Below, in pieces: positions 24,333 to 53,298 of a DNA stretch of 64,000 nt. Under the pieces are notes generated by a model, which made no database searches, was not told the DNA's origin, and saw only the letters and a list, made by a program, of their open reading frames with translations. Each line of letters begins with the position of its first letter. Within the stretch, counting starts at the first letter, position 1. Made by a program: the position numbers and the translations under genes. Source of the stretch: Patescibacteria group bacterium (GTDB taxonomy: Bacteria > Patescibacteriota > Microgenomatia > 2-02-FULL-39-11); NCBI GenBank assembly GCA_023379265.1, contig JAMCUI010000004.1, positions 73,273-137,272 of the forward strand, in the 5' to 3' direction.

Positions 24333-25031
24333 TTAAGACAGAATACTCCTTAGGATAATATTTTTCTCTCTGCCGTCTAATATGCACGTTTTAATTCCGC
24401 GCTCAATCAGGCTGTTTTTTACTGTTTCTTTTGCTTCTCCTCCTCCCACTCCAAACAATGAACCTTCCCATGAAGAAAGGATCAAAAGCCTGCTTTTGCC
24501 AAAAAGTTTTGCAATCTCTCCGGCCAGAAAATCGTTGCCCCCAAAACTGTTCAAGTCTAAAACATCATTTTCGTTTAATACCGGAACCACCCCGTTTTGC
24601 ATATATAGTCTTAATACTTTCCTTATATTCCCGCGCATAGCCGCATACTTAAAATCATATTTTGTCATCAATATCTGGGCAATCCTTACACCTCTCCTGC
24701 GCGCTAACTTGGCTAGAATCTGCATCATTTCCACCTGTCCGACTCCTGCGGCCGCCTGTTTACTCATCTTATCACTCTGTCCGACTCCTGCGGCCGCCTG
24801 TTTACTCATCTTATCACTCTCAACCTGCTTCTGAAAAAAGACTCTCATCCCGCAACCTACCGCTCCGGACAATACCAAAATTGGCGCAAACCCTTCTTGC
24901 CTCAGCTTGACCAGTTGGTCAACTATATGACTCAACCGTCTCCCGCAGAGCTTCCCTTTACCCTCAATAATTACCGAACTGCCGATTTTTACCACAATTA
25001 TTTTTCTTTCCATAAAAAAAGCCCTCTCCAC
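24333..25031 (-). CDS. proB: glutamate 5-kinase (short form, no PUA domain); contains in-frame 14-aa tandem duplication
   Basis: Amino-acid kinase N-terminus IVVKIGSSVI; duplicated SDKMSKQAAAGVGQ. Confidence 0.8.
   Translation of the reverse strand: MERAFFMERKIIVVKIGSSVIIEGKGKLCGRRLSHIVDQLVKLRQEGFAPILVLSGAVGCGMRVFFQKQVESDKMSKQAAAGVGQSDKMSKQAAAGVGQVEMMQILAKLARRRGVRIAQILMTKYDFKYAAMRGNIRKVLRLYMQNGVVPVLNENDVLDLNSFGGNDFLAGEIAKLFGKSRLLILSSWEGSLFGVGGGEAKETVKNSLIERGIKTCILDGREKNIILRSILS
24736..24819. repeat. 42-bp perfect tandem duplication inside proB
   Basis: ctgtccgactcctgcggccgcctgtttactcatcttatcact x 2. Confidence 0.9.
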
Positions 25032-29572: not shown

Positions 29573-32056
29573 ATGGCCGAAAACAAAGTTGTCCTTGAGC
29601 TTCGCACGCCAAAAACGGCTGAGGAAACACCAGGCTCTATGGAGCAGGTCTTTGCCGCGCTTTTTTCAGGCGGTCATATCCCCCACTGGAAAAGGCTCTG
29701 GATAAAGGTGCGCACTCTTTCTTTTGAAATCGCGAGCTTTAACCAGACCATCCATTTTTACTCGGTAGTACCGGAATCTTTCAGGACGTTTATCGAAAGC
29801 CAGCTGACCAGCCAATACCCCAAAATACTTATAACAAAAGTACCCGATTATATCGGCGAAATTACCAGGTCCCCGTTTCTTGCTGTAGGCAACCTGCAGC
29901 TGGCGCATGCTTTTTACTATCCCATCAAGACTTTTTCCGAGTTCAAAGAACTGGATCCTATGTCCTCAATCATCGGTGTCTTGTCCAAACTCTCACCTTT
30001 GCAAAAAGCCCTCATCCAGATAGTGATTGAGCCTCCGCACTTTAACTGGCAGGGAATGGTGACAAGGATGATTGAGCGCGGCATTCCTGACCCCACCCCA
30101 ACCGCTCCTGATAAAACCAAATCCTTCCCGCACGCGTCAATTATCGAGACCAAACTGAAAAATACCGGATACCGCACTTATATCAGGCTACTCGTAGGAG
30201 GAGAGACTGACAAGGAGGCCAAAAGTCTCATGTTCAACCTGGCCGGTTCCTTTGGCGCCTTTGCCCTGGGAGAAGGCAACCGGATAATTCTCAGGCGCCC
30301 ACGGCTGTTCTTTAAGAAAGTCATATTTAACCGCATCATAAAGCGCGAAAAAAGCCACTTTCCCCGTCACCAAATCTTTAATACCGCAGAACTGGCTACC
30401 ATCTTCCATCCGCCCACCATGCTTTTGGCAGGCATAAAAAATATCGCCTGGGGCAGATCTCTTGTCGGTGAGCCTCCGCAAAATCTGCCCGTTGCCCTGG
30501 GTGCCACAGAGGAACAAAAAAGCCAAATCAACTTCTTTGCCAAAGCAGAGTTTAAGAACTCCCTTACTACATTTGGTGTGAAGAAAGAAGATAGACGGAA
30601 ACACGTGTATGTCATCGGGAAAACGGGTACCGGGAAATCCACCATGATTGCCAACCTGGCTATAAATGACATGAGAAACCGCGAGGGCCTGGCGGTTGTC
30701 GACCCCCACGGCGATCTGTCTGAAATACTCCTTCACTATGTTCCCTCATACAGAATAAACGATGTAGTTTATCTGGAACCGTTTAATCAAGACCGTCCCT
30801 TCTGGATAAATCCGCTGGAAGTCAAAAATCCGGTCCACCGAGAACTGGTTGCATCCGGCATCGTCTCTATTTTCTCCAAATTATACGCTTACTCATGGGG
30901 ACCGAGGCTGGAGTATATTCTGAGAAATGTCATCCTCACGCTTCTGGAATATCCAAATGCCACCCTCACTATGGCCCTGGACCTTCTGGCCGACCAGAAC
31001 TTCCGACAGGGAGTCCTACTAAAGGTCCAGGATAGAGTACTCCAAAACTTCTGGCATAACGAATTTGACAAGATGCACCCCAGGCTAAAAAGCGAAGCAA
31101 TTGCGCCTATCCAAAACAAAGTCGGCCAGTTTGTCCAGTCCCCGACTATCAGACAGATCATAGGCCATTCCTCCTCAACTATTGATCTTGAAGACATCAT
31201 GAACCAGGGAAAAATACTGATACTAAATCTCGCCCAGGGGAAACTCGGCGAGGACAATGCTGCGCTTCTGGGGGCAATGTTTATCACCAAGATGCAGCTT
31301 GCGGCCATGAACCGGGTAAACATGCCTGAAGCCGAAAGGAAGGATTTTTACCTTTACGTGGACGAGTTCCAGAATTTTGCTACTTCATCTTTTATAAAAA
31401 TACTTTCCGAAGCCAGAAAATACAGACTGGACCTTATCCTGGCCAACCAGTATATAGGCCAGCTTGAAGAGACAGTGCAAAAAGCCATTTTCGGCAATGC
31501 CGGCACACTCATTTCCTTTGTTATTGGAGCCCAGGATGCCGCGGCAATAAGTAAGGAATTCGGCCAGTGGTATAAAGAGGAAGATTTAGTTAACTTAGGT
31601 TCATACCAGATAGTCATTAAACTTGCTATCGACAACCTCACTTCACTTCCCTTCCATGCCGTCACACTCCCCTTACCCAAAAGTGTCAATCAAAATAGAG
31701 ATAAGGTAGTCAGATTGTCGCTTGAAAGATACACGAAAAACGCGGATCCAACGCTTAGCGCGCTTAGGCAAACCCCTGCTTCCGCGGTACTTCCCAAACC
31801 GCAAACAGCCAGTTTTACCCAGACTCCTTCCCAACAAGCTCCTCCTGTCAAAAATACTCCAGAGACAAGTACTTCCACTAGTCTTCCCCAAGAGACAACG
31901 AGTACTTCCGCCAAGATATCTCGTCTTCCCCATCCGCAAACCAAAAAACAGCCAAAACCGGCCAAAGATACACCAAACACTTCACAGCCTGTTAATTCCA
32001 ATCCTACTAACCAATCCAACCAAACCAGCCAGACAAACACAAACCGTTCACAATAA
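29573..32056 (+). CDS. P-loop ATPase of the FtsK/HerA/TraD-VirD4 superfamily (type IV coupling-protein-like) with ~140-aa Pro/Thr/Gln-rich C-terminal tail
   Basis: Walker A VIGKTGTGKST, VVDPHGDL (TraG/VirD4-type motif), Walker B FYLYVDEFQNF; no N-terminal TM helices; GC content visibly above host genes. Confidence 0.5.
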   Translation: MAENKVVLELRTPKTAEETPGSMEQVFAALFSGGHIPHWKRLWIKVRTLSFEIASFNQTIHFYSVVPESFRTFIESQLTSQYPKILITKVPDYIGEITRSPFLAVGNLQLAHAFYYPIKTFSEFKELDPMSSIIGVLSKLSPLQKALIQIVIEPPHFNWQGMVTRMIERGIPDPTPTAPDKTKSFPHASIIETKLKNTGYRTYIRLLVGGETDKEAKSLMFNLAGSFGAFALGEGNRIILRRPRLFFKKVIFNRIIKREKSHFPRHQIFNTAELATIFHPPTMLLAGIKNIAWGRSLVGEPPQNLPVALGATEEQKSQINFFAKAEFKNSLTTFGVKKEDRRKHVYVIGKTGTGKSTMIANLAINDMRNREGLAVVDPHGDLSEILLHYVPSYRINDVVYLEPFNQDRPFWINPLEVKNPVHRELVASGIVSIFSKLYAYSWGPRLEYILRNVILTLLEYPNATLTMALDLLADQNFRQGVLLKVQDRVLQNFWHNEFDKMHPRLKSEAIAPIQNKVGQFVQSPTIRQIIGHSSSTIDLEDIMNQGKILILNLAQGKLGEDNAALLGAMFITKMQLAAMNRVNMPEAERKDFYLYVDEFQNFATSSFIKILSEARKYRLDLILANQYIGQLEETVQKAIFGNAGTLISFVIGAQDAAAISKEFGQWYKEEDLVNLGSYQIVIKLAIDNLTSLPFHAVTLPLPKSVNQNRDKVVRLSLERYTKNADPTLSALRQTPASAVLPKPQTASFTQTPSQQAPPVKNTPETSTSTSLPQETTSTSAKISRLPHPQTKKQPKPAKDTPNTSQPVNSNPTNQSNQTSQTNTNRSQ

Positions 32057-32105: not shown

Positions 32106-32351
32106 TTATTGGATTGGAGGTAGATTAAGATGATCTTCTATTCGTTCGTCACGTTTACGAAGATCCAGATATTCGGTATCAAAAAACTCAGCAATTATAC
32201 TAACATCTTTACGTATTTTCGTATTGTCTTTTTTAATTATTTTTACCTCTGAATTCAATACTTGTAAATCCCTCTTGATGGGGTGGAGCTCTTCCTTGAT
32301 AAATTTCATTAAGGAATTTCTTAAAGACAGAATATCAATTTTTGTCAGCAT
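32106..32351 (-). CDS. small coiled-coil protein, paralog of 44546..44809
   Basis: 81 aa; shares MLTK.DL start and DFFD.EYLD.R.R.ERIE.HLNL.P.Q end with the 87-aa paralog. Confidence 0.55.
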   Translation of the reverse strand: MLTKIDILSLRNSLMKFIKEELHPIKRDLQVLNSEVKIIKKDNTKIRKDVSIIAEFFDTEYLDLRKRDERIEDHLNLPPIQ

Positions 32352-32513: not shown

Positions 32514-32542
32514 TTGACAATCCTATAATTTAGTGGTATAGT
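32514..32542 (+). promoter_or_regulatory. sigma70-type promoter TTGACA-17-TATAGT reading rightward into a 640-nt non-coding leader
   Basis: Read directly. Confidence 0.4.
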
Positions 32543-32680
32543 TCGCGTCACGTTTCAGAAAAGCTTATTATTGTAGTATAAAATACAAAATATGCAGACA
32601 TCCGGAAAAATAAAATTTAACTTCCTGTTTTCCATAAAAAGAATTTTTGTCGTTCTTTTTATCTAAGTCAGGGAGTTTTT

Positions 32681-32775
32681 TGTGGCAAAACTAAACTCCC
32701 AAACTGAAGAAAAAGGGAGTTTTTTGTGGCAAAACTAAACTCCCAAACTGAAGAAAAAGGGAGTTTTTTGTGAGA
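32681..32775. repeat. Tandem repeat, ~44-bp unit x ~2.5; each unit contains a hairpin gggagtttt...aaactccc
   Basis: gggagttttttgtggcaaaactaaactcccaaactgaagaaaaa repeated without spacers. Confidence 0.85.
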
Positions 32776-33179
32776 AGTGAAACGACGAATCTGTTTGTGA
32801 AGGACTACCGGCTTTATTAAGATTTTGGTTAAAGGTAAATATTCTGCCCAAGATTTTTTGTCTTGGGTTTTTTTGCACTTTAACAAAAAGTGTCCCGTAT
32901 CTTTTTGTGACGGTTACACAATTTGCGTGTATTTATGTCTAAAAAGAGAGGAACACTTATCTTCCTGTGTTTAGAAAGTAACTTTTCCTCGCTTTGTTTC
33001 CCCGGACGTAACCGGCATTTTGGGCCTATAAATTGATGGACTCAAAATGACGGTTACGTTCATTATCTTTCATCGCAGAAACCAATTCACGCAGTAAAGG
33101 AGGAAAAGCACACAACAATCAAACAATCGTTATCCATCGAGATCGAAAAAATCGTATGTATGCCAAATGGAGGTAAACC

Positions 33180-34007
33180 ATGGCAAAGAAAGAAAAACCC
33201 ACCAACCACACGAAATGGTTCTGGTGGTTCTGGTTCCTGTTCTGCATCGTGGTCCTTGGCGGCATGGGACTCTGGGAGATCGCAAACCTCATCTTTTCGA
33301 AAAACGGCATTCAAGACATAGTGTTTGGAATGTCCGCCAACGACGACTTTGCGAATCTCCTGGGCTGGAGCGGCGCGGTCTTCTTCAGTTTCAACGAATT
33401 CCTGCCGTTCCTGGTCCTACTACTGCCCCCCGTGCGCAAGTACTTTGACAAGTGGTACAAGTGGGCGGCGATCATTGCCCTCTCCATCGTGCTCGGGTGG
33501 ATTCCCGACATCGGCAGCACGTATCTCGACATTTCGAGCCACACCGAGTACTGGAGCACGTTGGGACAGAACAAACTCATGACGACCGAGATGGTGATGG
33601 GGACCAAAATCCTCTTCAGCATCATCCTCGCCAACATGGAGCCGCTCATCGGCTTGAACATGATCCTCATCTCCGCACTATGGGAGAAGATGCATCATCT
33701 CGACGGCGATACTGTCGAGCCGCTTGAAGAACTCGAAGAGCTGATGCCCATTCTCGCAAAACTCGTCGAGGACGAGGAACTTGACGAAGAAGATGAAACA
33801 TTCATCAAGGGCGTGCTCGGCAAAGGCGAAGACGATGAACTCACAGCCAAAGATTTGAAGAAACTCCCCGGTAAGATCGAGGGCATCGCGGAAGCGGCTG
33901 AAAGCGCCAACGAGGGAGTCGAAAAACTCGTCGAACACCTCAAGGAAAAAGAGGAAGAAGAAGGCGACGAAGAGGACGACGAGGACAACGAAGACGAAGA
34001 GGATTAA
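33180..34007 (+). CDS. hypothetical multi-TM membrane protein with poly-acidic C-terminal tail
   Basis: Strong SD GGAGGT; hydrophobic segments; C-terminus EEEGDEEDDEDNEDEED; GC-rich. Confidence 0.5.
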   Translation: MAKKEKPTNHTKWFWWFWFLFCIVVLGGMGLWEIANLIFSKNGIQDIVFGMSANDDFANLLGWSGAVFFSFNEFLPFLVLLLPPVRKYFDKWYKWAAIIALSIVLGWIPDIGSTYLDISSHTEYWSTLGQNKLMTTEMVMGTKILFSIILANMEPLIGLNMILISALWEKMHHLDGDTVEPLEELEELMPILAKLVEDEELDEEDETFIKGVLGKGEDDELTAKDLKKLPGKIEGIAEAAESANEGVEKLVEHLKEKEEEEGDEEDDEDNEDEED

Positions 34008-34305
34008 CGTCTCTCTCTGCGCCTTTTGGGCGCGTCATGCCAAACACAGGAAGAGCGGGGGGCTGAAGAAAGCTTCAAAGAAGATGCACCGGCACAATAT
34101 GTGCAGGTTTGAACACCGTAACAGGTGCATCTATCTTGATTCTTTTCTCAGTCCCCCGTTTTTCCATTTCAGTATTTGTCCTGGGACAAGATGAATTTTT
34201 CGTTTTTACCGAGGACAAATATGGACAAATCTGTTCTCAATTTTTCTCTGCCAGACAGCCGGTAAAAGCTCCGGTTTTTTCTGGTGGGAAAAAGCTCTTT
34301 AACAG

Positions 34306-34425
34306 TTGAATGATAACGGATAAATGGTTATATGGAGTAGTTCGTATCCTTCAAATTCGTTTGGCGCGAGAGAAAGAGAAGCCAATTTCTGGTTGACTTT
34401 TCTTTTTCTCAAGCGTCAGATGAAA
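34306..34425 (+). promoter_or_regulatory. Repeat family A copy 1: conserved ttgaatgataacgga box, long imperfect hairpin (gcgagagaaagagaag/cttttctttttctcaagcg), conserved cgtcagatgaa, then SD
   Basis: Three copies share identical flanks; see copies at 35160 and 36958. Confidence 0.75.
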
Positions 34426-34451
34426 ATCGCAAAAAGAAAGGAAGGTCTGCC

Positions 34452-34910
34452 ATGTACATTTGCGGATGGGAAGAATTCGGTACACTTCCCTACAAGGACC
34501 AGGCAGAGATATTACGCGTGATAAATCAACAGGAAAGTATAAGTGTCTATGGCGGAATGAATGAGTTTTTCGAACTTGTTGAAAGGCTGATACCACAACA
34601 CCTGGAGTGGGTCGAGACGTATTGCAGCAACGCCCAAACTTTCAACAAAATAAAAAGAAGATACGATCTTGAGGAAATCGAGGCAATGCTGGAAGGATTG
34701 ATCCCTCCCGCAAATCCCGCACTCATGCCACCGCCAAAACCAAAACCCATGCCTGTATATACTCCTGTTGTTAAGAAGAGAGTTCACAAAACTTCCAAAC
34801 CCAGCCGTCATCGGATTCACCGATTGCGAAAGAGCAAAAATCGCAAGAAGAAATCCTGGATAGGAAGGATTGTGGGGAAAGGAAAAAAATTCCTTTCATC
34901 TTTCTTTTGA
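34452..34910 (+). CDS. hypothetical protein with Pro-rich middle and highly basic C-terminus
   Basis: SD AAGGAAGG; intact 152-aa ORF; no recognisable domain. Confidence 0.45.
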   Translation: MYICGWEEFGTLPYKDQAEILRVINQQESISVYGGMNEFFELVERLIPQHLEWVETYCSNAQTFNKIKRRYDLEEIEAMLEGLIPPANPALMPPPKPKPMPVYTPVVKKRVHKTSKPSRHRIHRLRKSKNRKKKSWIGRIVGKGKKFLSSFF

Positions 34911-35025
34911 AAACCGTTATCGTTCCCAGCTTGCATATTGGGTTTCTGCCCGAAGAGGGTGCTGGACGCCTGGTCCATCACAAAAATTCAAACCCTCTAA
35001 ATTGCACGTCTTGTCCTTAAATTTT

Positions 35026-35150
35026 TTGAGGACTGGACCTGACAGACAACATCTGTTGTCTGGAAATGATTATGGACTATATTTTTGAAATAAGTTCTTC
35101 AATATAGCCTCACAAATTGCGTGGGGTTTATTTTGATGGAATTTATCGCT
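35026..35150 (+). repeat. Repeat family B/C copy 1: gaggactggacc, hairpin cagacaacatctgttgtctg, gattatgga, then G/C hairpin + T-run
   Basis: Aligns with 36841-36957 and 39455-39590. Confidence 0.7.
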
Positions 35151-35159
35151 CTTTAACAG

Positions 35160-35263
35160 TTGAATGATAACGGAAATTATTCTCCTTCTGTTTCGTCTGG
35201 CGTGAGAGAATCAGTACCTAAACCACTCACTTGGGTTCTGTTTCTCTCAACCGCCAGATGAAG
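35160..35263 (+). promoter_or_regulatory. Repeat family A copy 2
   Basis: ttgaatgataacgga ... gcgtgagagaatcagtaccta / gggttctgtttctctcaaccgccagatgaag. Confidence 0.75.
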
Positions 35264-35394
35264 TAAATCCAAATCAGAAAGGAGATGGTAAAAGCAAAAA
35301 AAACTAATCGGCGCAAGAGAATGTACTGTAGTATCCGGAAGACAAAACCAAAAACCAACATGTTTTCCGGTATCTCTGATCGGAGGAAAAGATC

Positions 35395-36141
35395 ATGAAA
35401 GTGAAAGTATTTCTTGCAACGCAACTTGACGCCTCGCAAAGAAAAGCATTGTACGACGCGGTAGTCAAGTTCGCAAAGGACTTGGATCTCGAATCGTTCG
35501 AGGACATGTCCAAGTTCCATGAGTACATGGGCAATGCCGTTGACGACAAGATCGCAGGCGCTGTCAAAGGGACAATCACCACGGTCAAGAAATTGGAACT
35601 CTTGGTTGAAGCCGCAGAAGATAACTGGCAGCCGGAAGAGAAAACCGCGCCCGAAAAGCAGGAACCCAAATCGTCCGCGTCACCCACGCGCACAGCGGCA
35701 AAAGACCGCGCGGGGCGGCAACGGCGGATCGTGTTTCTCGTCGCAGCGGCGGCGGTCGTCCTGGTCGTCGTCTGCATCGGCATTGTCTTCTCGGGAGTTC
35801 TCGGTGGCGGAACCAGCAGCGCGACCAGCACGCTCACGCCAGCCGCACTCACGCCAATGTCAAACGCAGCGCCGAAAACTCCGGCTTCCAGCGGCTTGAA
35901 AATTCAGTCGGCACCAACCCCTCGCGGATTCTGCGAGCCGGGCACCAAAGTGCCGGCGGGACTGCCGCTCTACCGGATCACTTCGCCGGTAAACTCTGCC
36001 GTTCCCACGTGGGGCTTGACCGGCGGAAAAACCACCGACAACCAGACTTTCACAACCGGTTGGCAATCGGCTGAAAACGGCACAGTACGCATGTGCGCCG
36101 TGTCCAACAGCCCGTACGCAGTCCGTATTCCGGTGAAATAG
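35395..36141 (+). CDS. hypothetical protein with central TM helix and Ser/Thr/Pro-rich extracellular region
   Basis: SD GGAGG; TM segment IVFLVAAAAVVLVVVCIGIVF; GC-rich. Confidence 0.45.
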   Translation: MKVKVFLATQLDASQRKALYDAVVKFAKDLDLESFEDMSKFHEYMGNAVDDKIAGAVKGTITTVKKLELLVEAAEDNWQPEEKTAPEKQEPKSSASPTRTAAKDRAGRQRRIVFLVAAAAVVLVVVCIGIVFSGVLGGGTSSATSTLTPAALTPMSNAAPKTPASSGLKIQSAPTPRGFCEPGTKVPAGLPLYRITSPVNSAVPTWGLTGGKTTDNQTFTTGWQSAENGTVRMCAVSNSPYAVRIPVK

Positions 36142-36150
36142 GAGAAGAAC

Positions 36151-36588
36151 ATGACAACGCAAATCTTGCGAAAGAGAAAGACGTGGCTCGATGGGCACCC
36201 GCGCGCAAAGGCGTTCTGGCAACAAGTCCAACGCCACTGGCGGGTCGGCTCAAGCATCTTTGCTCTGGCGATCATCGCGTGGATTGGTGTCATGTACATC
36301 GCGGTTCCCATGGCTCACTTTGCGACGATCAGCGTGCCCAACCCCAACGACACCGCGTGTTCACTCGGAAACACCACGAACTCTGTGGTGTTCATGAAAT
36401 TTACTCCGAGCGGTACATTGCGTATCCACGGTAAGGTCGGCGCGAACCGTCTGGACTGGAACGAACCATTAGCACCCCTTGGCTATACTTGGACTAGCAA
36501 CAACATCCTGCCATGGGTCGGCTATTGGGAGCCGAACACCATCAAACCATGCACTGAAGCGCAAACTGCAATGACCGGCGGGCACTAG
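36151..36588 (+). CDS. hypothetical membrane-anchored protein
   Basis: SD AGGAG 10 nt after previous stop (operon with 35395 gene); TM helix SSIFALAIIAWIGVMYIAV. Confidence 0.45.
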   Translation: MTTQILRKRKTWLDGHPRAKAFWQQVQRHWRVGSSIFALAIIAWIGVMYIAVPMAHFATISVPNPNDTACSLGNTTNSVVFMKFTPSGTLRIHGKVGANRLDWNEPLAPLGYTWTSNNILPWVGYWEPNTIKPCTEAQTAMTGGH

Positions 36589-36840
36589 CCGCCAAAAGTG
36601 TATGCCGCGAGCAACTCGCCCGGGGCATACATTTGGACTCATCTTTCCGTTATTCTATCAACGATGTAGGGGTCTTGCGGATTTCCGCAGGGAAACAAAG
36701 ACAGAGAGACAAAAGAGGATATCATACTTTTTTGTTGGATCCGGTGTCTACACTGGATATCAACCACCCTCTTTACTTTTCTGTCTCCCCTAATTTCCAA
36801 GGAGATAAAAAGGTTTTGTCTTTTTGGATGTTCAGATAAT

Positions 36841-36957
36841 TGGACTTTTTCAAATTGTCTGAAAAAAAGATTATGGAATTTATGAAAGTATACTGTTCCA
36901 CGAGTTAACCCCTTTATGCGGGGTTATTTCTAGTGGGATGGATATGCACCTTAAAAA
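36841..36957 (+). repeat. Repeat family B/C copy 2 (5' part truncated)
   Basis: ttgtctgaaaaaaagattatggaatttatgaa ... aaccccttt atgcggggttatttct ... tgcaccttaaaaa. Confidence 0.7.
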
Positions 36958-37095
36958 TTGAATGATAACGGAATAATCACCTTCCCTTTCACTTTCATTT
37001 GGCGCGAGAGAACCAGCACCTAATTTCATTCGTGATACTAAATACGTAATACGTAATACAAATTTAGGTTCTGGTTTTCTCAAGCGTCAGATGAA
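36958..37095 (+). promoter_or_regulatory. Repeat family A copy 3 (17-bp stem gagagaaccagcaccta / taggttctggttttctc with 45-nt loop)
   Basis: Read directly. Confidence 0.75.
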
Positions 37096-37132
37096 AAAAC
37101 CAAAATCAAATATACGAAAGGAAGGTGCAATC

Positions 37133-39313
37133 ATGACAAAGTTAGAATTGCTAAAGTACCTCCGAAGAACAAACAGGTCACGGAAGTTTTACGAATTACT
37201 CACTAAATACCAAAACAATCTGTTTTTCAGGTTGAGAGGATTTAGTAGTGATTCGTTTCGACTCTACCTGAAGTTTGTCGGAGAGGCAAATTTAGCAAGA
37301 ACCATCGGAGACGTCAACACGACTTCACTCCGCCGCGTCTATCGCGTCCTCAAGAAAAGGTACGGGGATGAGGATGAATTGGAAGAGGATGATGGTCTAA
37401 CCATCAATATGAGTAAAGTACTTACAGTCGCGATTCTGATCGTGATTGGACTCGTAGTTCTGATGGGTCTCCCGGCGATTGGGGAAATCTCTTCCCAACT
37501 CGGGATACAGCTGGAGAAGGTGGCTGCGTCGATACCAACAACTCAACCGCAACCGCCAACCCTGGCACCAACACCCATCCCTCCCACCAAAGCTCCCCCT
37601 CTTCCCCCGCCCCCGACAGCGACACCTCAACCGCCTCCTCCGACGGTTGTAGTGGAGATGACAGCAACAGAAGCAGCTCCAGCCACTGACTGCGGCAATG
37701 AACTTTCAGCACAGGAATGTCAGAGGCTGCATGGTATGGTGGCTGCATACGGGAAGAAATGGACAGATGGGGATCCTAGTACCGGCTTGCCGCTTGGGCC
37801 GATGATGGTGGACAGGTATCTGCACGTGTGGAACCGGGATTGGACAGCTACGCAACAGGGGTTTAACGACATCCTGGGTCCACAAGGTGGGAACAGTACA
37901 CAAGCCACCAGTTCGGCAAGTTCTCCGGCGAAAAAATCGACACCGTATCCTACCATCGGCTACATTCAACCGATGACAATCACGGTGCAGGACAATAGCG
38001 GTCCGGCAGAAAATCCGACTCCCACAGCAACTCCATCTCCGCAAGCACAAGGAGGATGCAAGTCTGACGACTGGGGTTGTCAGTTCGGGAACTGGCTGCA
38101 AAGCCAATTTACGCCGATGACGTCGACACCCCAGGCACAGACGCAAACTAGCGGAAGTTGGTGCGTGAAGAAAGTGGATTGGAACGCCATGCAGGCGTGG
38201 TACTCCCACGGTACGGGAGACTTCACCGCAAATCTGCGTGACGTGAACCAGGGAGTGCTTCTGGACCGGGGTTTCAGCTGGACTGGTTTATATTGGAAAC
38301 CGGTCAATCTGTGCGGTAACGCCCAGATTATCGGCAACCCGCCGGCAAACCAATCGCAGGGGCCGCAAGCGCAAACACAACCCACACAGAGAACTCCGCT
38401 ACCCGGGTGGATGGCAAGCGCAGGAAGCTGGGGCTGTTGGGCATCTCCTTGGGGTGTAAGTCTGGATGCACAGATAGTAGATGGGTATTGGACCAATGAC
38501 GGTTACGTACTCATTTACTCACCACAGCGGGGCAAGAACGAGGTGGAAAAGGATCCCAACAAGATCCGGCAAGGAAAATGTCCGCCTACGCCAACGCCCA
38601 TGCCCACCAGTACGCCGCTTCCCCAACCGACTGCTCCACCACAGCGGATCGGGATCTACTGCATTTCAAGTGCAAGCGCCACAGGAGCAAGCGTCATGCT
38701 GACGCCAAACTCAGGCACAGGCGTAAACGTGACGCAGCAATTCCCGGTATACGAGGGATTCCGCTGGAACGGCCGATACCAGGAACCGGATGGCAGCAAA
38801 CCGATGTGCAACAGCTTGCCACAGTTTGCGCCGCCGGCACCTACCCAGATGACGGCACCGTTGCCCTCACCAACAGCATCCGTCTGCGTCCAATCAGTAT
38901 CGGACACGACATTGTATCTTCTCTGGAACAGCAGCCACGTCACTAAAAGCGTGACTGATGCTTCCGCAGGGCTGAGCCCTTACGGATTCAGCTGGACAAA
39001 CGGCAGATGGGTGACAAACACAAACGTCAAATACTGTGCCGGACCTCCCGGACCAACTACTGCTCCAACAGTCAGCGGTCCGCCCGGACCTACTGCAGTA
39101 CCAGCGCCTGTAAGGACTGCGTGTTTCCTTAAAGTTGACGGACAGAACATCTATATGCGGACTTTCGTCAACGGGATTCAATCCCCGCATGGTGATGTAT
39201 CCGTCAACCGGTACACGCAATCAGCCCAGATGGACTCGTACGGTTTTCAATGGAATGTCCCATGGTGGGGCGATCCTGCGTACGACCAGGGCACAGTACC
39301 TTCATGTAACTAA
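37133..39313 (+). CDS. large secreted/anchored hypothetical protein: N-terminal TM/signal anchor, Pro-rich linkers, Trp- and Cys-rich repeats
   Basis: SD AAGGAAGG before ATG 37133 (ORF track start 37091 lies inside the conserved leader); PQPPTLAPTPIPPTKAPPLPPPPT linker; many W/C residues. Confidence 0.5.
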   Translation: MTKLELLKYLRRTNRSRKFYELLTKYQNNLFFRLRGFSSDSFRLYLKFVGEANLARTIGDVNTTSLRRVYRVLKKRYGDEDELEEDDGLTINMSKVLTVAILIVIGLVVLMGLPAIGEISSQLGIQLEKVAASIPTTQPQPPTLAPTPIPPTKAPPLPPPPTATPQPPPPTVVVEMTATEAAPATDCGNELSAQECQRLHGMVAAYGKKWTDGDPSTGLPLGPMMVDRYLHVWNRDWTATQQGFNDILGPQGGNSTQATSSASSPAKKSTPYPTIGYIQPMTITVQDNSGPAENPTPTATPSPQAQGGCKSDDWGCQFGNWLQSQFTPMTSTPQAQTQTSGSWCVKKVDWNAMQAWYSHGTGDFTANLRDVNQGVLLDRGFSWTGLYWKPVNLCGNAQIIGNPPANQSQGPQAQTQPTQRTPLPGWMASAGSWGCWASPWGVSLDAQIVDGYWTNDGYVLIYSPQRGKNEVEKDPNKIRQGKCPPTPTPMPTSTPLPQPTAPPQRIGIYCISSASATGASVMLTPNSGTGVNVTQQFPVYEGFRWNGRYQEPDGSKPMCNSLPQFAPPAPTQMTAPLPSPTASVCVQSVSDTTLYLLWNSSHVTKSVTDASAGLSPYGFSWTNGRWVTNTNVKYCAGPPGPTTAPTVSGPPGPTAVPAPVRTACFLKVDGQNIYMRTFVNGIQSPHGDVSVNRYTQSAQMDSYGFQWNVPWWGDPAYDQGTVPSCN

Positions 39314-39454
39314 TCAGAATGATGAAGCTCTGAACTCCGTTGTCATTCCCAGCCATAGTGGGAGCAGTTTTTATACTCTCCCGACAGGGGGGCTGGATGT
39401 TCTCATCCGTCAAACCCAAAATACCCCTAAATGCTCGTTTGGTCCCCAAAAGTA

Positions 39455-39590
39455 TTTGAGGACTGGACCAGGCAGACAAAGAAATTTGTCTGCAAAAAAG
39501 ATTATGGAACTTATGAAGAAATTCTGTTTCACTATTTAGCCCCTTATTGCGGGGTTGTTTCTGGTGGAATAGAAATTGCACCTTAAAAAG
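39455..39590 (+). repeat. Repeat family B/C copy 3 (perfect hairpin cagacaaagaaatttgtctg; ccccttattgcggggttgtttct; gcaccttaaaaa)
   Basis: Read directly. Confidence 0.7.
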
Positions 39591-39799
39591 TTCATCCATT
39601 CAAGAAAAAAGGACAGGTTGATTATAAAAAGTCAGCTGCCGCATGGAGGGTATAAAGTTTTGTATCTTCCAAACGGCAGCTGAATGAACAAATCGTATCG
39701 TAAACCAACAAATTCAACTCATAAAGGAGGTAAACGCGACAAGTTCAAAATCAGGAAATCCGTAATCAACCATGTTCAATCTCAAAACTGGAGGACAGT

Positions 39800-41201: not shown

Positions 41202-41279
41202 ATCGGGGACACTGCCACGTTTGGCAGGACTGTGACGCTTCATGCGTCCTCTCTTTGCCAAACGTGTCCCCCCGATTTT
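41202..41279 (+). terminator. Long imperfect hairpin (atcggggacac...gtgtccccccgat with nested acgtttggca/tgccaaacgt) followed by TTTT
   Basis: Read directly. Confidence 0.55.
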
Positions 41280-41535
41280 CCAGCTTTGAAAGAAATTTCA
41301 GAGCTGAGAATACGGTCTTTGCACCTTAAAATATGAAAGAAATCAAAATTACGCAGCGGGAATACCCGAGGGTGCGGCGTGGAAGATTAATATTGTCGAC
41401 AAAAACAATATCCGTTTTCCGCGTCGCGCCGTCGGGGAAAATCAAAAGTATGTCATCAGGAGGTGAAACAGAAAAACGAACACTCTATCGATTCAACCAA
41501 GTACATGAGATCAATCGAAAGGAGAATCTACGAAA

Positions 41536-42435: not shown

Positions 42436-42480
42436 CGCGAAACGATCTATGCCAACGAGTTTGTCTCCCCCGACGGCGCG

Positions 42481-42786
42481 ATGGGCATGGAAAGGAAGGT
42501 GATCTTGAAAAAAAGTTTGACAGTGAAGGGACTGTTTGCCGCCATCATACTCCTCCTCTGCGTCGCGTACTTCTTTAGCCCGATCAATTGGGCTGATGAC
42601 GTCATCCCGGTCCTGGGATTTGCGGATGACTTCGTCGACATCGCGATCGCGGTGCTGGATGTGATGTGGTTTTTCGCGCAGGCGAGAAAACTGAGAGAAT
42701 CGGGCGCAAACCCGGTTGCTGCTCTAGAGAGTTCTGCGCGAATTCCGAAGAAAAAACGGAGAAAAAAGACAGTCCATCGCGCGTGA
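42481..42786 (+). CDS. DUF1232 (YkvA-like) small membrane protein
   Basis: ADDVIPVLGFADDFVDIAIAVLD motif characteristic of DUF1232. Confidence 0.55.
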   Translation: MGMERKVILKKSLTVKGLFAAIILLLCVAYFFSPINWADDVIPVLGFADDFVDIAIAVLDVMWFFAQARKLRESGANPVAALESSARIPKKKRRKKTVHRA

Positions 42787-42791
42787 ACGAA

Positions 42792-42820
42792 ATCTTGAAC
42801 CGAACATCTCGGTTCAAGAT
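42792..42820. other. Perfect 12-bp stem hairpin (atcttgaaccga/tcggttcaagat, loop acat) just after the DUF1232 stop
   Basis: Read directly. Confidence 0.7.
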
Positions 42821-43244
42821 GCAATGATTTCTTTCATAAAATCAATAAAACCATGAGCGGATCCTGCGTTAGACAACAGGACCATGGTCTGGGTGGAGAC
42901 GAAGAAGAGATGAAATTTGGCACGCGCGCCAACTCCGAAGCTTTACCGCTTCCTCATCTCCTTTTCCCCCTCCGTTTTACCCAGTTTCCACTCCCTTGGA
43001 TATAATAAATCTATATTACATCCAAAGGAGTGGATTTTTAGAATAGTTCCATTACCCCGGAAGTAAACAAAAATTTAACTCCGGAGGAATGGAACGGTAA
43101 GTTTTTCCATTGCACATTGAAAACTTATGGGGAAAAAATGCAGTGGGGTTATAAGGTTTTAACCAGTTTGGTTACAGCCTTTCATCCCCATTGCATTCAT
43201 CGTGAAATAAAAACCAAAATCATTCGTGTCAAAAAGGAGGAACC

Positions 43245-44252: not shown

Positions 44253-44409
44253 TTTCACCGCACAGGTTTTCGGGGGAGCACCCCAAGTCTCTTGAGGTGC
44301 TCCACCTCACACACTCTCCCCAAAAATCAACCTGCGTCCATCATCCTGGACAGGAATTATCCTGTCCGTGATTTGTGTACGCAGGATGATATTTAAGTTT
44401 CAAACCCGT

Positions 44410-44545: not shown

Positions 44546-44809
44546 TTACTGAAGCGGTGAGAGATTGAGATGTTTTTCGATACGCTCTACTCGTTGACGA
44601 AAATCCAAATATTCTTTATCAAAGAAATCTGTAATCGTACCTGTATCTTTTCTTATTTTGGCAATATCCAGTTTAATAGGTTTCAGATCATCTTTGGTAA
44701 CAAAACTTCTCAAATCATCCCTTCTCACAAAAGATTTCGCATCATCTTTGGTTAGAGCAACTTCCTTGATTGACTGCTTAATTTTTTGCAGATCTGTTTT
44801 TGTGAGCAT
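44546..44809 (-). CDS. small coiled-coil protein, paralog of 32106..32351
   Basis: 87 aa; conserved N- and C-terminal blocks with the 81-aa paralog. Confidence 0.55.
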   Translation of the reverse strand: MLTKTDLQKIKQSIKEVALTKDDAKSFVRRDDLRSFVTKDDLKPIKLDIAKIRKDTGTITDFFDKEYLDFRQRVERIEKHLNLSPLQ

Positions 44810-48822: not shown

Positions 48823-49284
48823 TCACCAAAACTTTATCGGGAAGATGATCGCGGCGGCTCCCCAAAGAAGCAGACCCACCGCGAGGGTGAAAAGGTATTT
48901 CCTTACGGGAATTAGAAGTGGTTCGCTAGACTGCTGTGTCACTTGCTTTCGCGTGACGAAGTAACGCAGCACCCGGGGAAATGCAATCCCGGTTCCGCCT
49001 ACAAGCGAACCCCAACAGGTAATTCCCTGCAGGAAAACCCATGAGCCAAACCAAAACCGGAAGAGGAAAAAAGCCACCTCGGGGTTTTGGATCAGCCAAC
49101 TGACTGTCCAATCAAACTTTGCGACGAACAAGTCCCAGTTTGTCATGTTCTGCCTCCTCAGAAAGATTTTTGAAAATACCGCATTGGAAAAGGCAAATTT
49201 TGCCTTCTCTATTGCGGTATCTTCCTCCCTTCCCGCTATCTTTTCAAAGAACAAAAAGAAAACGTCATAAACTTTCAGCCGCAA
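48823..49284 (-). CDS. hypothetical small membrane protein (start probably internal, MTNWDLF...)
   Basis: Hydrophobic helices FFLFRFWFGSWVFL, LAVGLLLWGAAAIIFPI. Confidence 0.4.
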   Translation of the reverse strand: MRLKVYDVFFLFFEKIAGREEDTAIEKAKFAFSNAVFSKIFLRRQNMTNWDLFVAKFDWTVSWLIQNPEVAFFLFRFWFGSWVFLQGITCWGSLVGGTGIAFPRVLRYFVTRKQVTQQSSEPLLIPVRKYLFTLAVGLLLWGAAAIIFPIKFW

Positions 49285-49363
49285 AAAAGCTGATATTTAT
49301 GAAATTTCGGGAATTATAGCACATTTCTTGACTATAGGTTAAATCCATCATAAAATTCCTTTC

Positions 49364-53084: not shown

Positions 53085-53298
53085 ATAAATTGCGAATTAC
53101 CCAATTTCCCAATTGAGAATTAATAACGTATTAACCCAAAAAAATAAGCAGAGACACTTCTCTGCTTTGTAGAAAAATGTCTCCTTATCCCGATTTTATC
53201 GGGACCTTCCACCCGGACATTTTTTATCAGGAGACACATCCGGATGTGTGTGATTTTTATATTATAACCTATTGCAGAAATTTATCAAGCACAAGATC

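What the first reader, a model, noticed from the sequence alone, without database searches (positions are those of the whole stretch)
34306..37095. Repeat family A: three copies of a promoter + structured-leader module whose stem carries compensatory substitutions
Copies at 34306-34425, 35160-35263 and 36958-37095 share exact blocks in this order: (gctct)ttaacag, TTGAATGATAACGGA, then tttggcgcgagaga, a long hairpin, tctcaagcgtcagatgaa, an SD, then ATG. The hairpin differs between copies but stays complementary. Copy 3 pairs gagagaaccagcaccta with taggttctggttttctc; copy 1 pairs gagagaaagagaag with cttttctttttctc. At least three base pairs change on both arms together (a-t,g-c becomes c-g,c-g; g-c becomes c-g). 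Loop length varies from about 20 to 45 nt. Compensatory change implies selection for the structure, which points to a cis-regulatory 5' UTR RNA (attenuator, thermosensor or regulator-binding hairpin) rather than neutral duplication. The conserved TTGAATGATAACGGA box lies where a promoter spacer would be (TTAACA, 16-17 nt, then an AT-rich -10), so it could be an operator. A conserved ATG inside cagATGaa is out of frame or followed by a stop in two of the copies, so it is probably not the start.
Basis: seen in the sequence. Interest (0 to 1): 0.7.

Follow-up and report, generated by a model that had tools for sequence, protein, structure and literature searches.

The report
Repeated boxA-like, hairpin-bearing gene leaders
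Three genes in a strain-specific island of an uncultivated (CPR, Gottesmanbacteria) bacterium are preceded by copies of one control module: a long RNA hairpin, and upstream of it a block first read as a promoter that matches the "boxA" signal bacteria and phage lambda use to make RNA polymerase ignore stop signals.

Summary
Three same-strand copies (34294-34454, 35148-35287, 36946-37135) share an 11-nt box, an exact 15-mer, a long hairpin with a conserved base and AA bulge, an A-rich linker and an SD. The hairpin is real (z -4 to -6.7). It keeps 95.6% pairing, with 4 two-sided and 6 one-sided changes, and is 8-17 kcal/mol more stable as sense RNA. With only 3 copies the covariation statistics are weak.

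No further copy was found in the window, in 12 related Gottesmanbacteria loci, or in viral or JGI metagenome contigs. The two downstream genes tested are ORFans.

The modules lie in a GC-rich ~12-kb block inside a variable hotspot between the T4CP-like gene and tsf. Every gene there has a long leader hairpin.

The main revision concerns the "-35 box". GCTCTTTAACA matches the published boxA consensus GYTCTTTAANA exactly. The same box-then-long-hairpin layout recurs at three more island leaders, on the minus strand (49252) and in a related genome (L004). In those last two it lies downstream of canonical promoters.

Best reading (about 0.45): a nut/rrn-leader-like RNA module. The promoter-plus-operator reading (about 0.3) is not excluded. 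Thermosensor, terminator, MITE and attC readings are not supported.

The parts
34257..34283 (+). Copy 1: short G+C hairpin plus U run directly upstream of the box (terminator-like, or boxB-like)
   Evidence: Terminator-like site 34257-34276 followed by TTTTTTCT
34294..34304 (+).
   Evidence: Exact match to GYTCTTTAANA. 11/11 identical to the E. coli rrn boxA-spacer UGCUCUUUAACAA (PMC2724277).
34306..34320 (+). Copy 1: invariant 15-mer TTGAATGATAACGGA (spacer element, or 'operator')
   Evidence: Exact in all three copies
34356..34424 (+). Copy 1: long leader hairpin. 12-bp conserved base, AA bulge, 14-bp upper stem, small apical hairpin.
   Evidence: RNAfold -36.5 kcal/mol, z -4.0. 7 G-U pairs; sense -35.9 vs antisense -19.0 kcal/mol.
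34437..34454 (+). Copy 1: SD AAAGGAAGG and the ATG (34452) of the ORFan gene 34452-34910
   Evidence: Sequence. The protein has no homologue other than itself.
35106..35135 (+). Copy 2: short hairpin plus U run upstream of the box
   Evidence: Terminator-like site 35106-35128 followed by TATTTTGA
35148..35158 (+). Copy 2: boxA-like box GCTCTTTAACA
   Evidence: Exact match to GYTCTTTAANA
35160..35174 (+). Copy 2: invariant 15-mer
35189..35265 (+). Copy 2: long leader hairpin. The base carries one-sided G-U to G-C changes and the bulge has shifted.
   Evidence: -42.5 kcal/mol, z -6.1; pair counts
35278..35397 (+). Copy 2: SD-like AAAGGAG, a 37-codon Arg/Lys-rich ORF (35285-35398), a second hairpin (about 35334-35369), then the real SD GGAGG and ATG 35395
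   Evidence: Sequence and fold
36906..36932 (+). Copy 3: short hairpin plus U-rich run upstream of the box
   Evidence: Terminator-like site 36906-36926. 81% identical over 94 nt to the region upstream of the box at 39578.
36946..36956 (+). Copy 3: variant box GCACCTTAAAA. Together with the next bases it resembles the lambda nutL boxA-spacer cgcucuuaaaaauuaa.
   Evidence: nutL sequence from PMC2724277 Table 1
36958..36972 (+). Copy 3: invariant 15-mer
36978..36990 (+). Copy 3: pyrimidine tract CACCTTCCCTTTC, complementary to the SD region 37113-37126
   Evidence: Duplex -16.7 kcal/mol, p=0.003 against random genomic segments. SD unpaired probability about 0.
36993..37096 (+). Copy 3: long leader hairpin (41 pairs)
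   Evidence: -46.4 kcal/mol, z -6.7; sense -45.2 vs antisense -34.8 kcal/mol
37116..37135 (+). Copy 3: SD GAAAGGAAGG and the ATG (37133) of the 726-aa ORFan membrane protein
   Evidence: ORFan status
32875..33061 (+). Related leader (not family A): box GCACTTTAACA at 32875, long hairpin 33004-33061
39578..39683 (+). Related leader: box GCACCTTAAAA at 39578, long hairpin 39632-39683
   Evidence: covariance-model hit at 23.8 bits
41321..41436 (+). Related leader: box GCACCTTAAAA at 41321 with a degenerate 15-mer, long hairpin 41365-41436
49146..49320 (-). Independent analogue on the minus strand: extended -10 promoter TGcTATAAT, then GTTCTTTGAAAA (starting at 49252), then hairpin 49227-49169, then SD GAGGAGG and ATG 49146
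   Evidence: z -5.0; covariance-model hit at 18.4 bits

Best explanation
The three repeats are paralogous copies of a transcribed 5'-leader module. They belong to a GC-rich, roughly 12-kb block of ORFan genes, mostly membrane-anchored, in a Candidatus Gottesmanbacteria (CPR) chromosome.

From 5' to 3' the module has six parts:
1. A short hairpin with a U run.
2. A boxA-like sequence: GCUCUUUAACA in copies 1 and 2, GCACCUUAAAA in copy 3.
3. An invariant 15-nt spacer, UUGAAUGAUAACGGA.
4. A pyrimidine tract.
5. A 26-41-bp imperfect hairpin with a conserved base and an AA bulge.
6. An unstructured A-rich linker, then the SD.

I propose it works like the phage lambda nutL/N leader or an rrn leader. 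The nascent boxA would recruit NusB-NusE(S10) and the other Nus factors to the elongating polymerase. That would protect transcription of this foreign-looking block from premature, Rho-type termination, and/or hold the leader in a loop that limits ribosome access. The long duplex downstream would then act as a double-strand-specific (RNase III-type) processing or stabilising element. Cleavage would separate boxA, and in copies 2 and 3 an anti-SD tract, from the mRNA body.

Shown: the sequence repeats, the hairpins and their strand-specific conservation, the exact boxA-consensus match, and the recurrence of the box-then-hairpin layout.

Inferred: that the box is transcribed, that Nus factors bind it, that RNase III cleaves the hairpin, and the direction of the regulatory effect.
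For: Structure:
- The hairpins have z scores of -4 to -6.7.
- 30 pairs, 95.6% paired, 4 two-sided and 6 one-sided changes; slid controls give 38-54% pairing.
- All six island leader hairpins are 8-17 kcal/mol more stable as sense RNA. Two hairpins upstream of the minus-strand ORF 42447-42824 favour the minus strand.

BoxA:
- GCTCTTTAACA is an exact match to GYTCTTTAANA. There are 3 exact hits in the window against 0.47 expected, and two of them are copies 1 and 2 (consensus from PMC5725501).
- It is 11/11 identical to the E. coli rrn boxA-spacer.
- All six island boxes keep G1, C2, C4, T6, T7, A8, A9 and A11. C4 and T6 are positions whose mutation abolishes function in E. coli.

The box lies inside leaders:
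- Minus-strand instance: GTTCTTTGAAAA about 60 nt downstream of TGcTATAAT, followed by a z -5.0 hairpin and an SD.
- L004, a related genome: GCACTTTAACAA 237 nt downstream of TTGACT-N17-TATAAA, followed by a 67-nt hairpin with z -4.8.
- Three island boxes have no -10 at 16-18 nt.
- Each intergenic region has a separate terminator-like hairpin just after the stop codon, and a conserved promoter-like module before the box-proximal hairpin.
- The box is predicted to be more single-stranded than the leader average in 7 of 8 instances.

Leader hairpins are specific to the island. The best 110-nt fold upstream of island genes is -35 to -50 kcal/mol, against -13 to -33 for most other genes at similar GC.

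Precedent: lambda nutL, a structured leader with an RNase III site, and the N SD; suhB boxA; CRISPR boxA (PMC5725501 and PMC7665894); rrn boxB-boxA-boxC followed by the leader-trailer helix.
Against: - No TSS data exist, so it is not shown that the box is transcribed.
- In the island the box sits 13-22 nt after a terminator-like hairpin with a U run. That is where a new promoter would be expected, and it is an odd place for an antitermination signal.
- TTAACA is a 5/6 match to a -35 hexamer, and the three family-A copies do have AT-rich -10-like hexamers 15-17 nt downstream.
[quoted passage not shown] The rrn boxA of Gottesmanbacteria could not be examined, because no rRNA gene lies in any held locus.
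- With up to 1 mismatch the motif is not enriched in the window (9 found against 14.6 expected).
- Copies 1 and 2 are paralogues, so they count as one event.
- The hairpins are far larger than lambda boxB, and no N homologue was found.
- NusB, Rho and RNase III genes are not in the window.
- There are only three copies, all in one genome, so covariation is weak.
Confidence: 0.45

Rival explanations
1. Each copy is a sigma-70-type promoter with -35 TTAACA or TTAAAA and a weak AT-rich -10 just after GGA. The invariant 15-mer in the spacer is an operator for a repressor or activator. Transcription starts a few nucleotides before the hairpin, so the hairpin is a 5'-terminal stem-loop that stabilises the mRNA.
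For: - TTAACA is a 5/6 match to TTGACA.
- -10-like TAAAT, AATTAT and AATAAT lie 15-17 nt downstream. The scan flags 35153 TTAACA-16-AATTAT at 9/12.
- The box follows a terminator-like hairpin plus U run in five intergenic regions, which fits a layout of terminator then next promoter.
- The 15/15 identity in all three copies, in otherwise diverged flanks, suggests a bound site.
- The predicted TSS would put the hairpin at the 5' end in copies 2 and 3.
Against: - All six boxes lack the -35 G that the clear promoters of this genome and its relatives have: 32514 and 32388 TTGACA, L004 TTGACT, L001 TTGACA.
- Three of the six boxes have no -10.
- The invariant G1, C2 and C4 upstream of the hexamer are unexplained by this model.
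- Copy 1 has an 18-nt insertion that would move the hairpin about 22 nt from the TSS.
- The conserved CCTTC / anti-SD tract would fall at or before +1.
- No DNA-binding protein was identified in the island. The model of the 34452 protein has pLDDT 56.6 and is uninformative.
- The independent box instances lie downstream of strong promoters.
Confidence: 0.3
2. A translational switch. A pyrimidine tract 5' of the hairpin pairs with the SD or start codon 3' of it. The long hairpin acts as a clamp that brings the two together. Translation is turned on when the clamp is cut or melted. This could coexist with either model above.
For: - Copy 3: CACCUUCCcUUUC pairs with GAAAGGAAGGUG at -16.7 kcal/mol, p=0.003, and the SD unpaired probability is about 0.
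- Copy 2: UCUCCUU pairs with AAGGAGA, p=0.04.
- The two helices differ in sequence but match their own SDs.
- The 32875 leader pairs an SD-like AAAGGAGG with an upstream CUUUUCCUC (p=0.04).
Against: - Not significant for copy 1, or for the 39578 and 41321 leaders.
- Purine-rich SDs pair readily with any pyrimidine tract.
- In copy 2 the sequestered SD-like site abuts an ATG with zero spacing, and the real gene start has its own SD 110 nt further on.
- This model requires the tract to be transcribed, which conflicts with the promoter model.
Confidence: 0.15
3. No selected RNA function. The intergenic regions are recent mosaic duplications, and complementarity in the stems is kept by mutational mechanisms (template switching in quasi-palindromes, gene conversion). 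Alternatively the hairpins are DNA-level elements such as MITE ends or recombination sites of gene cassettes.
For: - The intergenic regions are mosaics of shared modules, with breakpoints at the box.
- There are only three copies in one genome, and the covariation test is reached by about 5% of shuffles.
- Inverted, operator-like sequences lie just after three stop codons (34912, 36648, 39336).
- The cassette-like layout is box, gene, hairpins.
Against: - The strand asymmetry from G-U pairs follows the direction of transcription in 8 of 8 leader hairpins, including those of a minus-strand ORF.
- Unrelated hairpin sequences occupy the same leader position in every island gene, in L004 and at 49252. 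That points to selection for structure rather than descent.
- There is no TSD, no dispersed or inverted copies, no transposase or integrase, and no attC core GTTRRRY.
- The inverted operator-like matches are at chance level (4 matches with up to 3 mismatches against 3.03 expected).
Confidence: 0.1

Closest known systems
Phage lambda nutL / N-gene leader (boxA, spacer, boxB, then a structured leader with an RNase III site, then the N SD)
   Same: The order of elements is the same: a boxA-type sequence, a conserved spacer, and a long structured region between boxA and the SD. Copy 3's box plus spacer (GCACCUUAAAAAUUGAA) resembles the nutL boxA-spacer cgcucuuaaaaauuaa. Both sit on what looks like an acquired element. 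The precedent is that Nus/N at nutL represses translation and RNase III relieves it.
   Different: There is no 15-nt boxB with a GNRA-like loop, and no N homologue. The hairpin is 70-104 nt. The module occurs before several genes rather than once per operon, and the box is preceded by a terminator-like hairpin. Nothing has been tested biochemically.
rrn antitermination leader (boxB hairpin, boxA, boxC, then the leader-trailer / RNase III helix)
   Same: A short hairpin comes immediately before boxA. Copies 1 and 2 are identical over 11 nt to E. coli rrn boxA plus the start of its spacer. A long helix follows.
   Different: The genes are protein-coding. The long helix is a local hairpin, not a long-range leader-trailer pairing. 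No boxC was identified.
BoxA elements in mRNA or CRISPR leaders (suhB, a ParE-like toxin gene, CRISPR arrays)
   Same: A boxA-consensus match in the leader of a non-rRNA gene, in the sense orientation.
   Different: Known cases are few per genome and have no associated long hairpin. Here there are up to seven within about 17 kb, in a CPR bacterium, ahead of ORFan membrane-protein genes.
T7-type 'promoter plus RNase III site' modules, and 5' stabiliser stem-loops such as the ompA and T7 gene 10 leaders (recalled from memory, not tested here)
   Same: A repeated conserved upstream block, followed by a long imperfect hairpin with a bulge, an unstructured linker and a strong SD. The module is repeated before several genes of one element.
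   Different: No phage-type RNA polymerase was identified. The conserved block matches boxA, not a phage promoter. Stabiliser hairpins are usually much shorter.
Hairpin-forming intergenic repeats (Correia/CREE, ERIC, REP, MITEs)
   Same: Imperfect palindromes of 70-100 nt in intergenic regions that are co-transcribed with genes.
   Different: There is no TSD and no dispersed or inverted copies. Homology extends beyond the palindrome on both sides. All copies have the same orientation and the same position relative to the SD.

Membership tests
BoxA (NusB-NusE binding site) / nut-like antiterminator | Sequence matches the boxA consensus (GYTCTTTAANA in gamma-proteobacteria) | tested here: met
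   Copies 1 and 2 match exactly. Copy 3 matches 9/11 and keeps C4, T6, T7, A8 and A9. The consensus for CPR bacteria is unknown.
BoxA (NusB-NusE binding site) / nut-like antiterminator | The element lies in the nascent RNA, downstream of a promoter | tested here: inconclusive
   There are no TSS data. Promoter-like TTGTCT-N16/17 motifs lie about 62 nt upstream in three intergenic regions. Independent instances at 49252(-) and L004 13506 are downstream of near-consensus promoters. In the island, however, the box follows a terminator-like hairpin.
BoxA (NusB-NusE binding site) / nut-like antiterminator | Binding of NusB-S10, and a boxA-dependent effect on termination or translation | not testable with these tools
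   This needs biochemistry or genetics. nusB and rho are not in the 64-kb window.
Lambdoid nut site | A boxB hairpin of about 15 nt bound by an N-type arginine-rich protein | tested here: not met
   The hairpins are 69-104 nt. No N homologue was found; the island proteins have no informative Pfam or PHROG hits. Arg-rich peptides exist (35285-35398; the tail of the 34452 protein), but linking them to this role is speculation.
Sigma-70 promoter with operator | -35 and -10 hexamers at 16-18 nt spacing | tested here: inconclusive
   Only copy 2 passes the 9/12 scan. The -10s are weak, and three homologous boxes have none.
RNase III substrate | About 20 bp or more of near-continuous dsRNA | tested here: met
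   There are 26-41 predicted pairs with a 2-nt bulge. Cleavage itself cannot be tested here.
Intrinsic terminator / transcription attenuator | A G+C-rich hairpin immediately followed by a U run | tested here: not met
   The long hairpin is followed by AGAUGAAAA and is not listed by the terminator scan.
RNA thermometer / SD-sequestering hairpin | The SD or start codon is paired within the regulatory hairpin | tested here: not met
   The SD lies 13-20 nt 3' of the hairpin. Long-range anti-SD pairing is significant only for copy 3.
MITE / Correia-like element | Terminal inverted repeats flanked by a target-site duplication, with dispersed copies in both orientations | tested here: not met
   No TSD in the flanks. 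There are only 3 copies, all on the + strand and all in the same position relative to genes. Homology extends beyond the stems.
Integron attC cassette site | R''/R' core sites (RYYYAAC / GTTRRRY) and a nearby IntI integrase | tested here: not met
   No core sites in the stems, and no integrase domain in the window.
Any Rfam family | Score at or above the gathering threshold | tested here: not met
   0 hits at gathering thresholds. At E up to 5 there are only sub-threshold miRNA-type hairpin matches.

The most novel reading that the evidence does not exclude
The GC-rich ORFan block carries its own multi-site processive-antitermination system. Every gene is headed by a nut-like site, made of boxA plus a long boxB-like hairpin. 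These sites recruit the host Nus complex together with an island-encoded arginine-rich RNA-binding protein. Candidates are the basic tail of the 34452-34910 protein and the 37-codon Arg/Lys-rich ORF at 35285-35398. This would let a foreign element in a CPR bacterium escape Rho and terminator silencing gene by gene, with RNase III-type cleavage of the hairpins setting translation. It would be the first N-like or boxA-based regulon described in the Candidate Phyla Radiation, and an unusual case of many boxA sites serving protein-coding genes.
Probability: 0.1. Interest if true: 0.75.

Novelty: new variant of a known kind. Interest (0 to 1): 0.5.

Why it matters
Gene regulation in CPR/Patescibacteria is almost unstudied. 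If the box is a working boxA, about seven Nus-factor sites would serve protein-coding ORFan genes within roughly 17 kb. In the species studied so far only a few non-rRNA targets are expected per genome (PMC5725501). That would suggest acquired DNA uses the host antitermination machinery to avoid Rho-type silencing. Pairing each box with a long duplex also mirrors the lambda N leader, where RNase III tunes Nus/N-mediated repression. It gives a directly testable design: TSS mapping, NusB-S10 binding and RNase III cleavage. If the box is only a weak promoter, the finding reduces to an ordinary lineage-specific family of duplicated promoter and leader regions.

Tried and rejected
More copies:
- Exact-block and covariance-model searches of the window and of 12 related Gottesmanbacteria loci found none.
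- Three viral-contig scans found none.
- Two metagenome scans found none. The single hit, L013, is a chance match in GC-rich coding sequence: it forms no hairpin and scores 17 bits.
- blastn of the leader against the phage and plasmid collections found nothing.

Orthologous leaders via downstream proteins:
- The 726-aa, 152-aa and 299-aa island proteins each hit only themselves among 5.8 billion proteins.
- The one Logan contig retrieved is 100% identical to the window.

Rfam:
- No family matched.
- No rRNA gene lies in the held loci, so the boxA of this lineage could not be checked.

Readings considered and dropped:
- Sigma-54, ECF-sigma, -10-in-box, K-turn and attC readings of the box or stem were inspected by eye. 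Spacing or sequence was inconsistent.
- The inverted operator-like sequences after three stop codons were considered as TIRs or a second operator. They are at chance level and homologous to one another.

Conjugative-element context:
- The TraG/VirD4-like gene is a conserved chromosomal gene between frr and tsf in relatives. Chromosomal T4CP homologues are common in Patescibacteria (PMC12102498). It is therefore not evidence for an ICE, and the ssDNA-promoter (Frpo-like) idea was dropped. The stems also contain no -35/-10 elements and favour RNA G-U pairing.

Structure prediction:
- The model of the 34452 protein has pLDDT 56.6 and was not searched further.

Full report

Yes. The 15-mer TTGAATGATAACGGA occurs exactly three times in the 64-kb window, at 34306, 35160 and 36958, all on the + strand. 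The 3' stem block CTCAAGCGTCAGATGAA occurs at 34408 and 37079, with a 2-mismatch version at 35246. That is 3 matches against 0.16 expected. The 5' stem block is at 34361 and 36999, with a 2-mismatch version at 35197.

Each copy folds into one long hairpin: 34356-34424 (z -4.0), 35189-35265 (z -6.1) and 36993-37096 (z -6.7). Each hairpin has a 12-bp base (UUCGUUUGGCGC/GCGUCAGAUGAA), a 2-nt AA bulge on the 3' side, the GAGAGA/UCUC block, and a divergent upper stem.

On the three-way alignment, 30 consensus pairs are 95.6% paired. Four pairs change on both sides and six change on one side through G-U. Sliding the partners by 1-3 columns drops pairing to 38-54%. With only three sequences, 23-28 of 500 shuffles reach the observed values.

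A covariance model built from the three copies finds only these three, at 85-94 bits.

**2. Context**

A TraG/VirD4-like protein (29573-32056) identifies the organism as Candidatus Gottesmanbacteria, a CPR/Patescibacteria lineage. Relatives share 52-92% identity.

In relatives the gene order is frr, T4CP-like, tsf, rpsB, with 0.1-5 kb between the T4CP-like gene and tsf. In the window 19.7 kb lie there. The repeats therefore sit in a variable hotspot. T4CP homologues of this kind are common chromosomal genes in Patescibacteria (PMC12102498), so this gene is not evidence for a conjugative element.

The segment from about 33 to 43 kb has 50-57% GC, against about 40% in the flanks. It is bracketed by two diverged copies of a small minus-strand gene (32106-32351 and 44546-44809; about 75% identity over the aligned region). 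That gene is single-copy in L001 and L004.

The genes in this segment have no informative Pfam or PHROG match. Most encode membrane-anchored proteins. The three I searched are ORFans among 5.8 billion proteins.

No further copy of the leader was found in 12 related loci, in viral contigs, in JGI metagenomes, or in the phage and plasmid collections. Rfam has nothing.

**3. The three copies are part of a wider pattern**

An 11-nt box GC[AT]C[CT]TTAA[AC]A occurs six times, at 32875, 34294, 35148, 36946, 39578 and 41321. All six are intergenic and on the + strand.

- Five of the six (all but 41321) are preceded by a short G+C hairpin plus a U run.
- Each is followed within 30-130 nt by a long hairpin, then an SD and a gene.
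- Only three of the hairpins belong to family A. The other three are unrelated in sequence.

Island genes have best upstream 110-nt folds of -35 to -50 kcal/mol. Most other genes in the window, at similar GC, have -13 to -33.

All six leader hairpins contain 3-7 G-U pairs and are 8-17 kcal/mol more stable as sense RNA than as antisense RNA. Two hairpins upstream of the minus-strand ORF 42447-42824 favour the minus strand.

Unrelated sequences giving the same structure at the same place, together with a strand bias that follows transcription, are stronger evidence for a selected RNA structure than the three-copy covariation. The intergenic regions are mosaics. The one ahead of copy 3 and the one at 39578 share 94 nt (81% identity) upstream of the box and diverge after it. 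Copies 1-3 share what follows the box.

**4. What is the box?**

But GCTCTTTAACA (copies 1 and 2) matches the published boxA consensus GYTCTTTAANA exactly (PMC5725501). There are 3 exact hits in the window against 0.47 expected. It is also identical over 11 nt to the E. coli rrn boxA-spacer UGCUCUUUAACAA (PMC2724277).

The variant box in copy 3, together with its first spacer bases (GCACCUUAAAAAUUGAA), resembles the lambda nutL boxA-spacer cgcucuuaaaaauuaa. All six boxes keep G1, C2, C4, T6, T7, A8, A9 and A11. C4 and T6 are positions whose mutation inactivates boxA in E. coli.

Two independent instances support a location inside leaders:

- On the minus strand, GTTCTTTGAAAA starts at 49252. 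From memory this is the Gram-positive/Mollicutes form of boxA. It equals the start of the Mycoplasma PCR primer GTTCTTTGAAAACTGAAT, which from memory targets the 16S-23S spacer. It lies about 60 nt downstream of an extended -10 promoter, TGcTATAAT. A long hairpin (z -5.0), an SD and an ATG follow.
- In the related genome L004, GCACTTTAACAA lies 237 nt downstream of TTGACT-N17-TATAAA. A 67-nt hairpin (z -4.8) follows, in the leader of a secreted-protein gene.

L001 also has GCACTTTGAAAAA after the orthologous promoter and hairpins.

Against the promoter reading:

- Three of the six boxes have no -10 at the right spacing.
- All six lack the -35 G found in the clear promoters here.
- The consensus scan passes only copy 2, at 9/12.

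Against the boxA reading:

- The box sits just after a terminator-like hairpin.
- With up to 1 mismatch the motif is not enriched.
- The boxA consensus drifts between phyla.
- The rrn boxA of this lineage could not be checked.

Each intergenic region also has a separate terminator-like hairpin right after the stop codon. Between that and the box-proximal hairpin lies a conserved module (TTGTCTG-A6-GATTATGGAAyTTATGAA) that could hold the real promoter.

**5. Mechanism**

I favour, at about 0.45, a nut/rrn-leader-like RNA module. BoxA would load the Nus complex on the polymerase, giving protection from Rho-type termination and/or looping that limits ribosome access. The long duplex between boxA and the SD would be an RNase III-type processing or stabilising element.

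The closest precedent is the lambda N leader. There, nutL is followed by a structured leader with an RNase III site, and cleavage relieves Nus/N-mediated translational repression (cited in PMC5725501). The rrn leader is also close: boxB, boxA, boxC, then a long leader-trailer helix.

A subsidiary feature is an anti-SD tract 5' of the hairpin. It pairs with the SD in copy 3 (p=0.003) and copy 2 (p=0.04), but not convincingly in the others.

The promoter-plus-operator-plus-5'-stabiliser model stays at about 0.3. A purely mutational or DNA-level origin is at about 0.1. The sequence does not support the terminator/attenuator, thermosensor, MITE or attC readings.

**6. Novelty and limits**

Nothing here is tested biochemically. 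There are only three family members, all in one genome. No TSS is known, and nusB, rho and rnc lie outside the window.

If the boxA reading holds, this is a new variant of a known kind: many boxA sites, each coupled to a long hairpin, ahead of ORFan protein genes in a CPR genomic island. If it fails, this is an ordinary lineage-specific family of duplicated promoter and leader regions.

The cheapest decisive test is to read the rrn leader boxA of this MAG. The next is TSS mapping.

Noticed in passing
window 32106-32351 and 44546-44809 (minus strand), bracketing about 32.4-44.5 kb: Two diverged copies of a small gene (81 and 87 aa; about 75% identity over the aligned region, including the promoter region) flank the GC-rich ORFan block (50-57% GC against about 40% in the flanks). 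The gene is single-copy next to the T4CP-like gene in L001, and also single-copy in L004. This looks like integration of a roughly 12-kb element by recombination at a homologous gene, but no integrase or replication gene was recognised.
   Followed up: partly
window 32514-32890; L001 12860-13060: A near-consensus promoter (TTGACA-17-TGgTATAGT) is followed by a 44-nt unit repeated 2.3 times (32670-32772), each unit containing a GGGAGUUU...AAACUCCC hairpin. A terminator and the first boxA-like box follow. L001 has the same promoter, hairpin and box layout. This could be a small RNA, an iteron array or a leader; which is unknown.
   Followed up: partly
window 34049-34165: A very large imperfect hairpin (42-nt arms, -65 kcal/mol) lies directly after the stop codon of gene 33180-34007. 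Other long hairpins follow genes at 41204-41271 and 44270-44394.
   Followed up: no
window 35072-35107, 36873-36908, 39504-39539 (and 34221-34265): Conserved 11-residue mini-ORFs (MDYIFEISSSI, MEFMKVYCSTS, MELMKKFCFTI; a 14-residue one ahead of copy 1). Their stop codons overlap the 5' arm or loop of the hairpin plus U run that precedes each box. They could be a pyrBI-like translation-coupled attenuator, or simply a conserved promoter motif (GATTATGGAA). No SD precedes them.
   Followed up: partly
window 35285-35398: A 37-codon Arg/Lys-rich ORF (MVKAKKTNRRKRMYCSIRKTKPKTNMFSGISDRRKRS) lies between the copy 2 hairpin and gene 35395. Its stop overlaps that gene's start (ATGA). The 34452-34910 protein also ends in a long basic tail. 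Arginine-rich RNA-binding peptides are what a lambda-N-like system would need, but this link is speculative.
   Followed up: no
window 49146-49320 (minus strand): An independent module outside the GC-rich block: TGcTATAAT promoter, a small hairpin, GTTCTTTGAAAA (Gram-positive-type boxA-like), a long hairpin at 49227-49169, SD GAGGAGG, and the ATG of a 107-aa ORFan.
   Followed up: partly
L004 13269-13730: A related Gottesmanbacteria genome has the same layout in its own variable region: TTGACT-N17-TATAAA promoter, GCACTTTAACAA at 13506, a 67-nt hairpin at 13546-13612, then a secreted-protein gene at 13730.
   Followed up: partly
window 34912-34926, 36648-36663, 39336-39350: Sequences resembling the reverse complement of the 15-mer (CCGTTATCgTTCcc, TCCGTTATtCtATCAA, TCCGTTgTCATTCcc) lie just after three stop codons. 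They are homologous to one another and individually at chance level. They could be a second binding site, or nothing.
   Followed up: partly
window 29573-32056: The T4SS coupling-protein (TraG/VirD4-like) gene is a conserved chromosomal gene between frr and tsf in Gottesmanbacteria. Its last roughly 105 residues (after residue 722) are not shared with most relatives, which suggests the variable region starts inside the 3' end of the gene.
   Followed up: partly
window about 53085-53300 (minus strand, upstream of rpsB) and upstream of 24333-25013: Two housekeeping genes also have unusually stable upstream folds (-43.7 and -42.4 kcal/mol over 110 nt). The one before rpsB may be an S2 autoregulatory leader that Rfam does not recognise in this lineage.
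   Followed up: no
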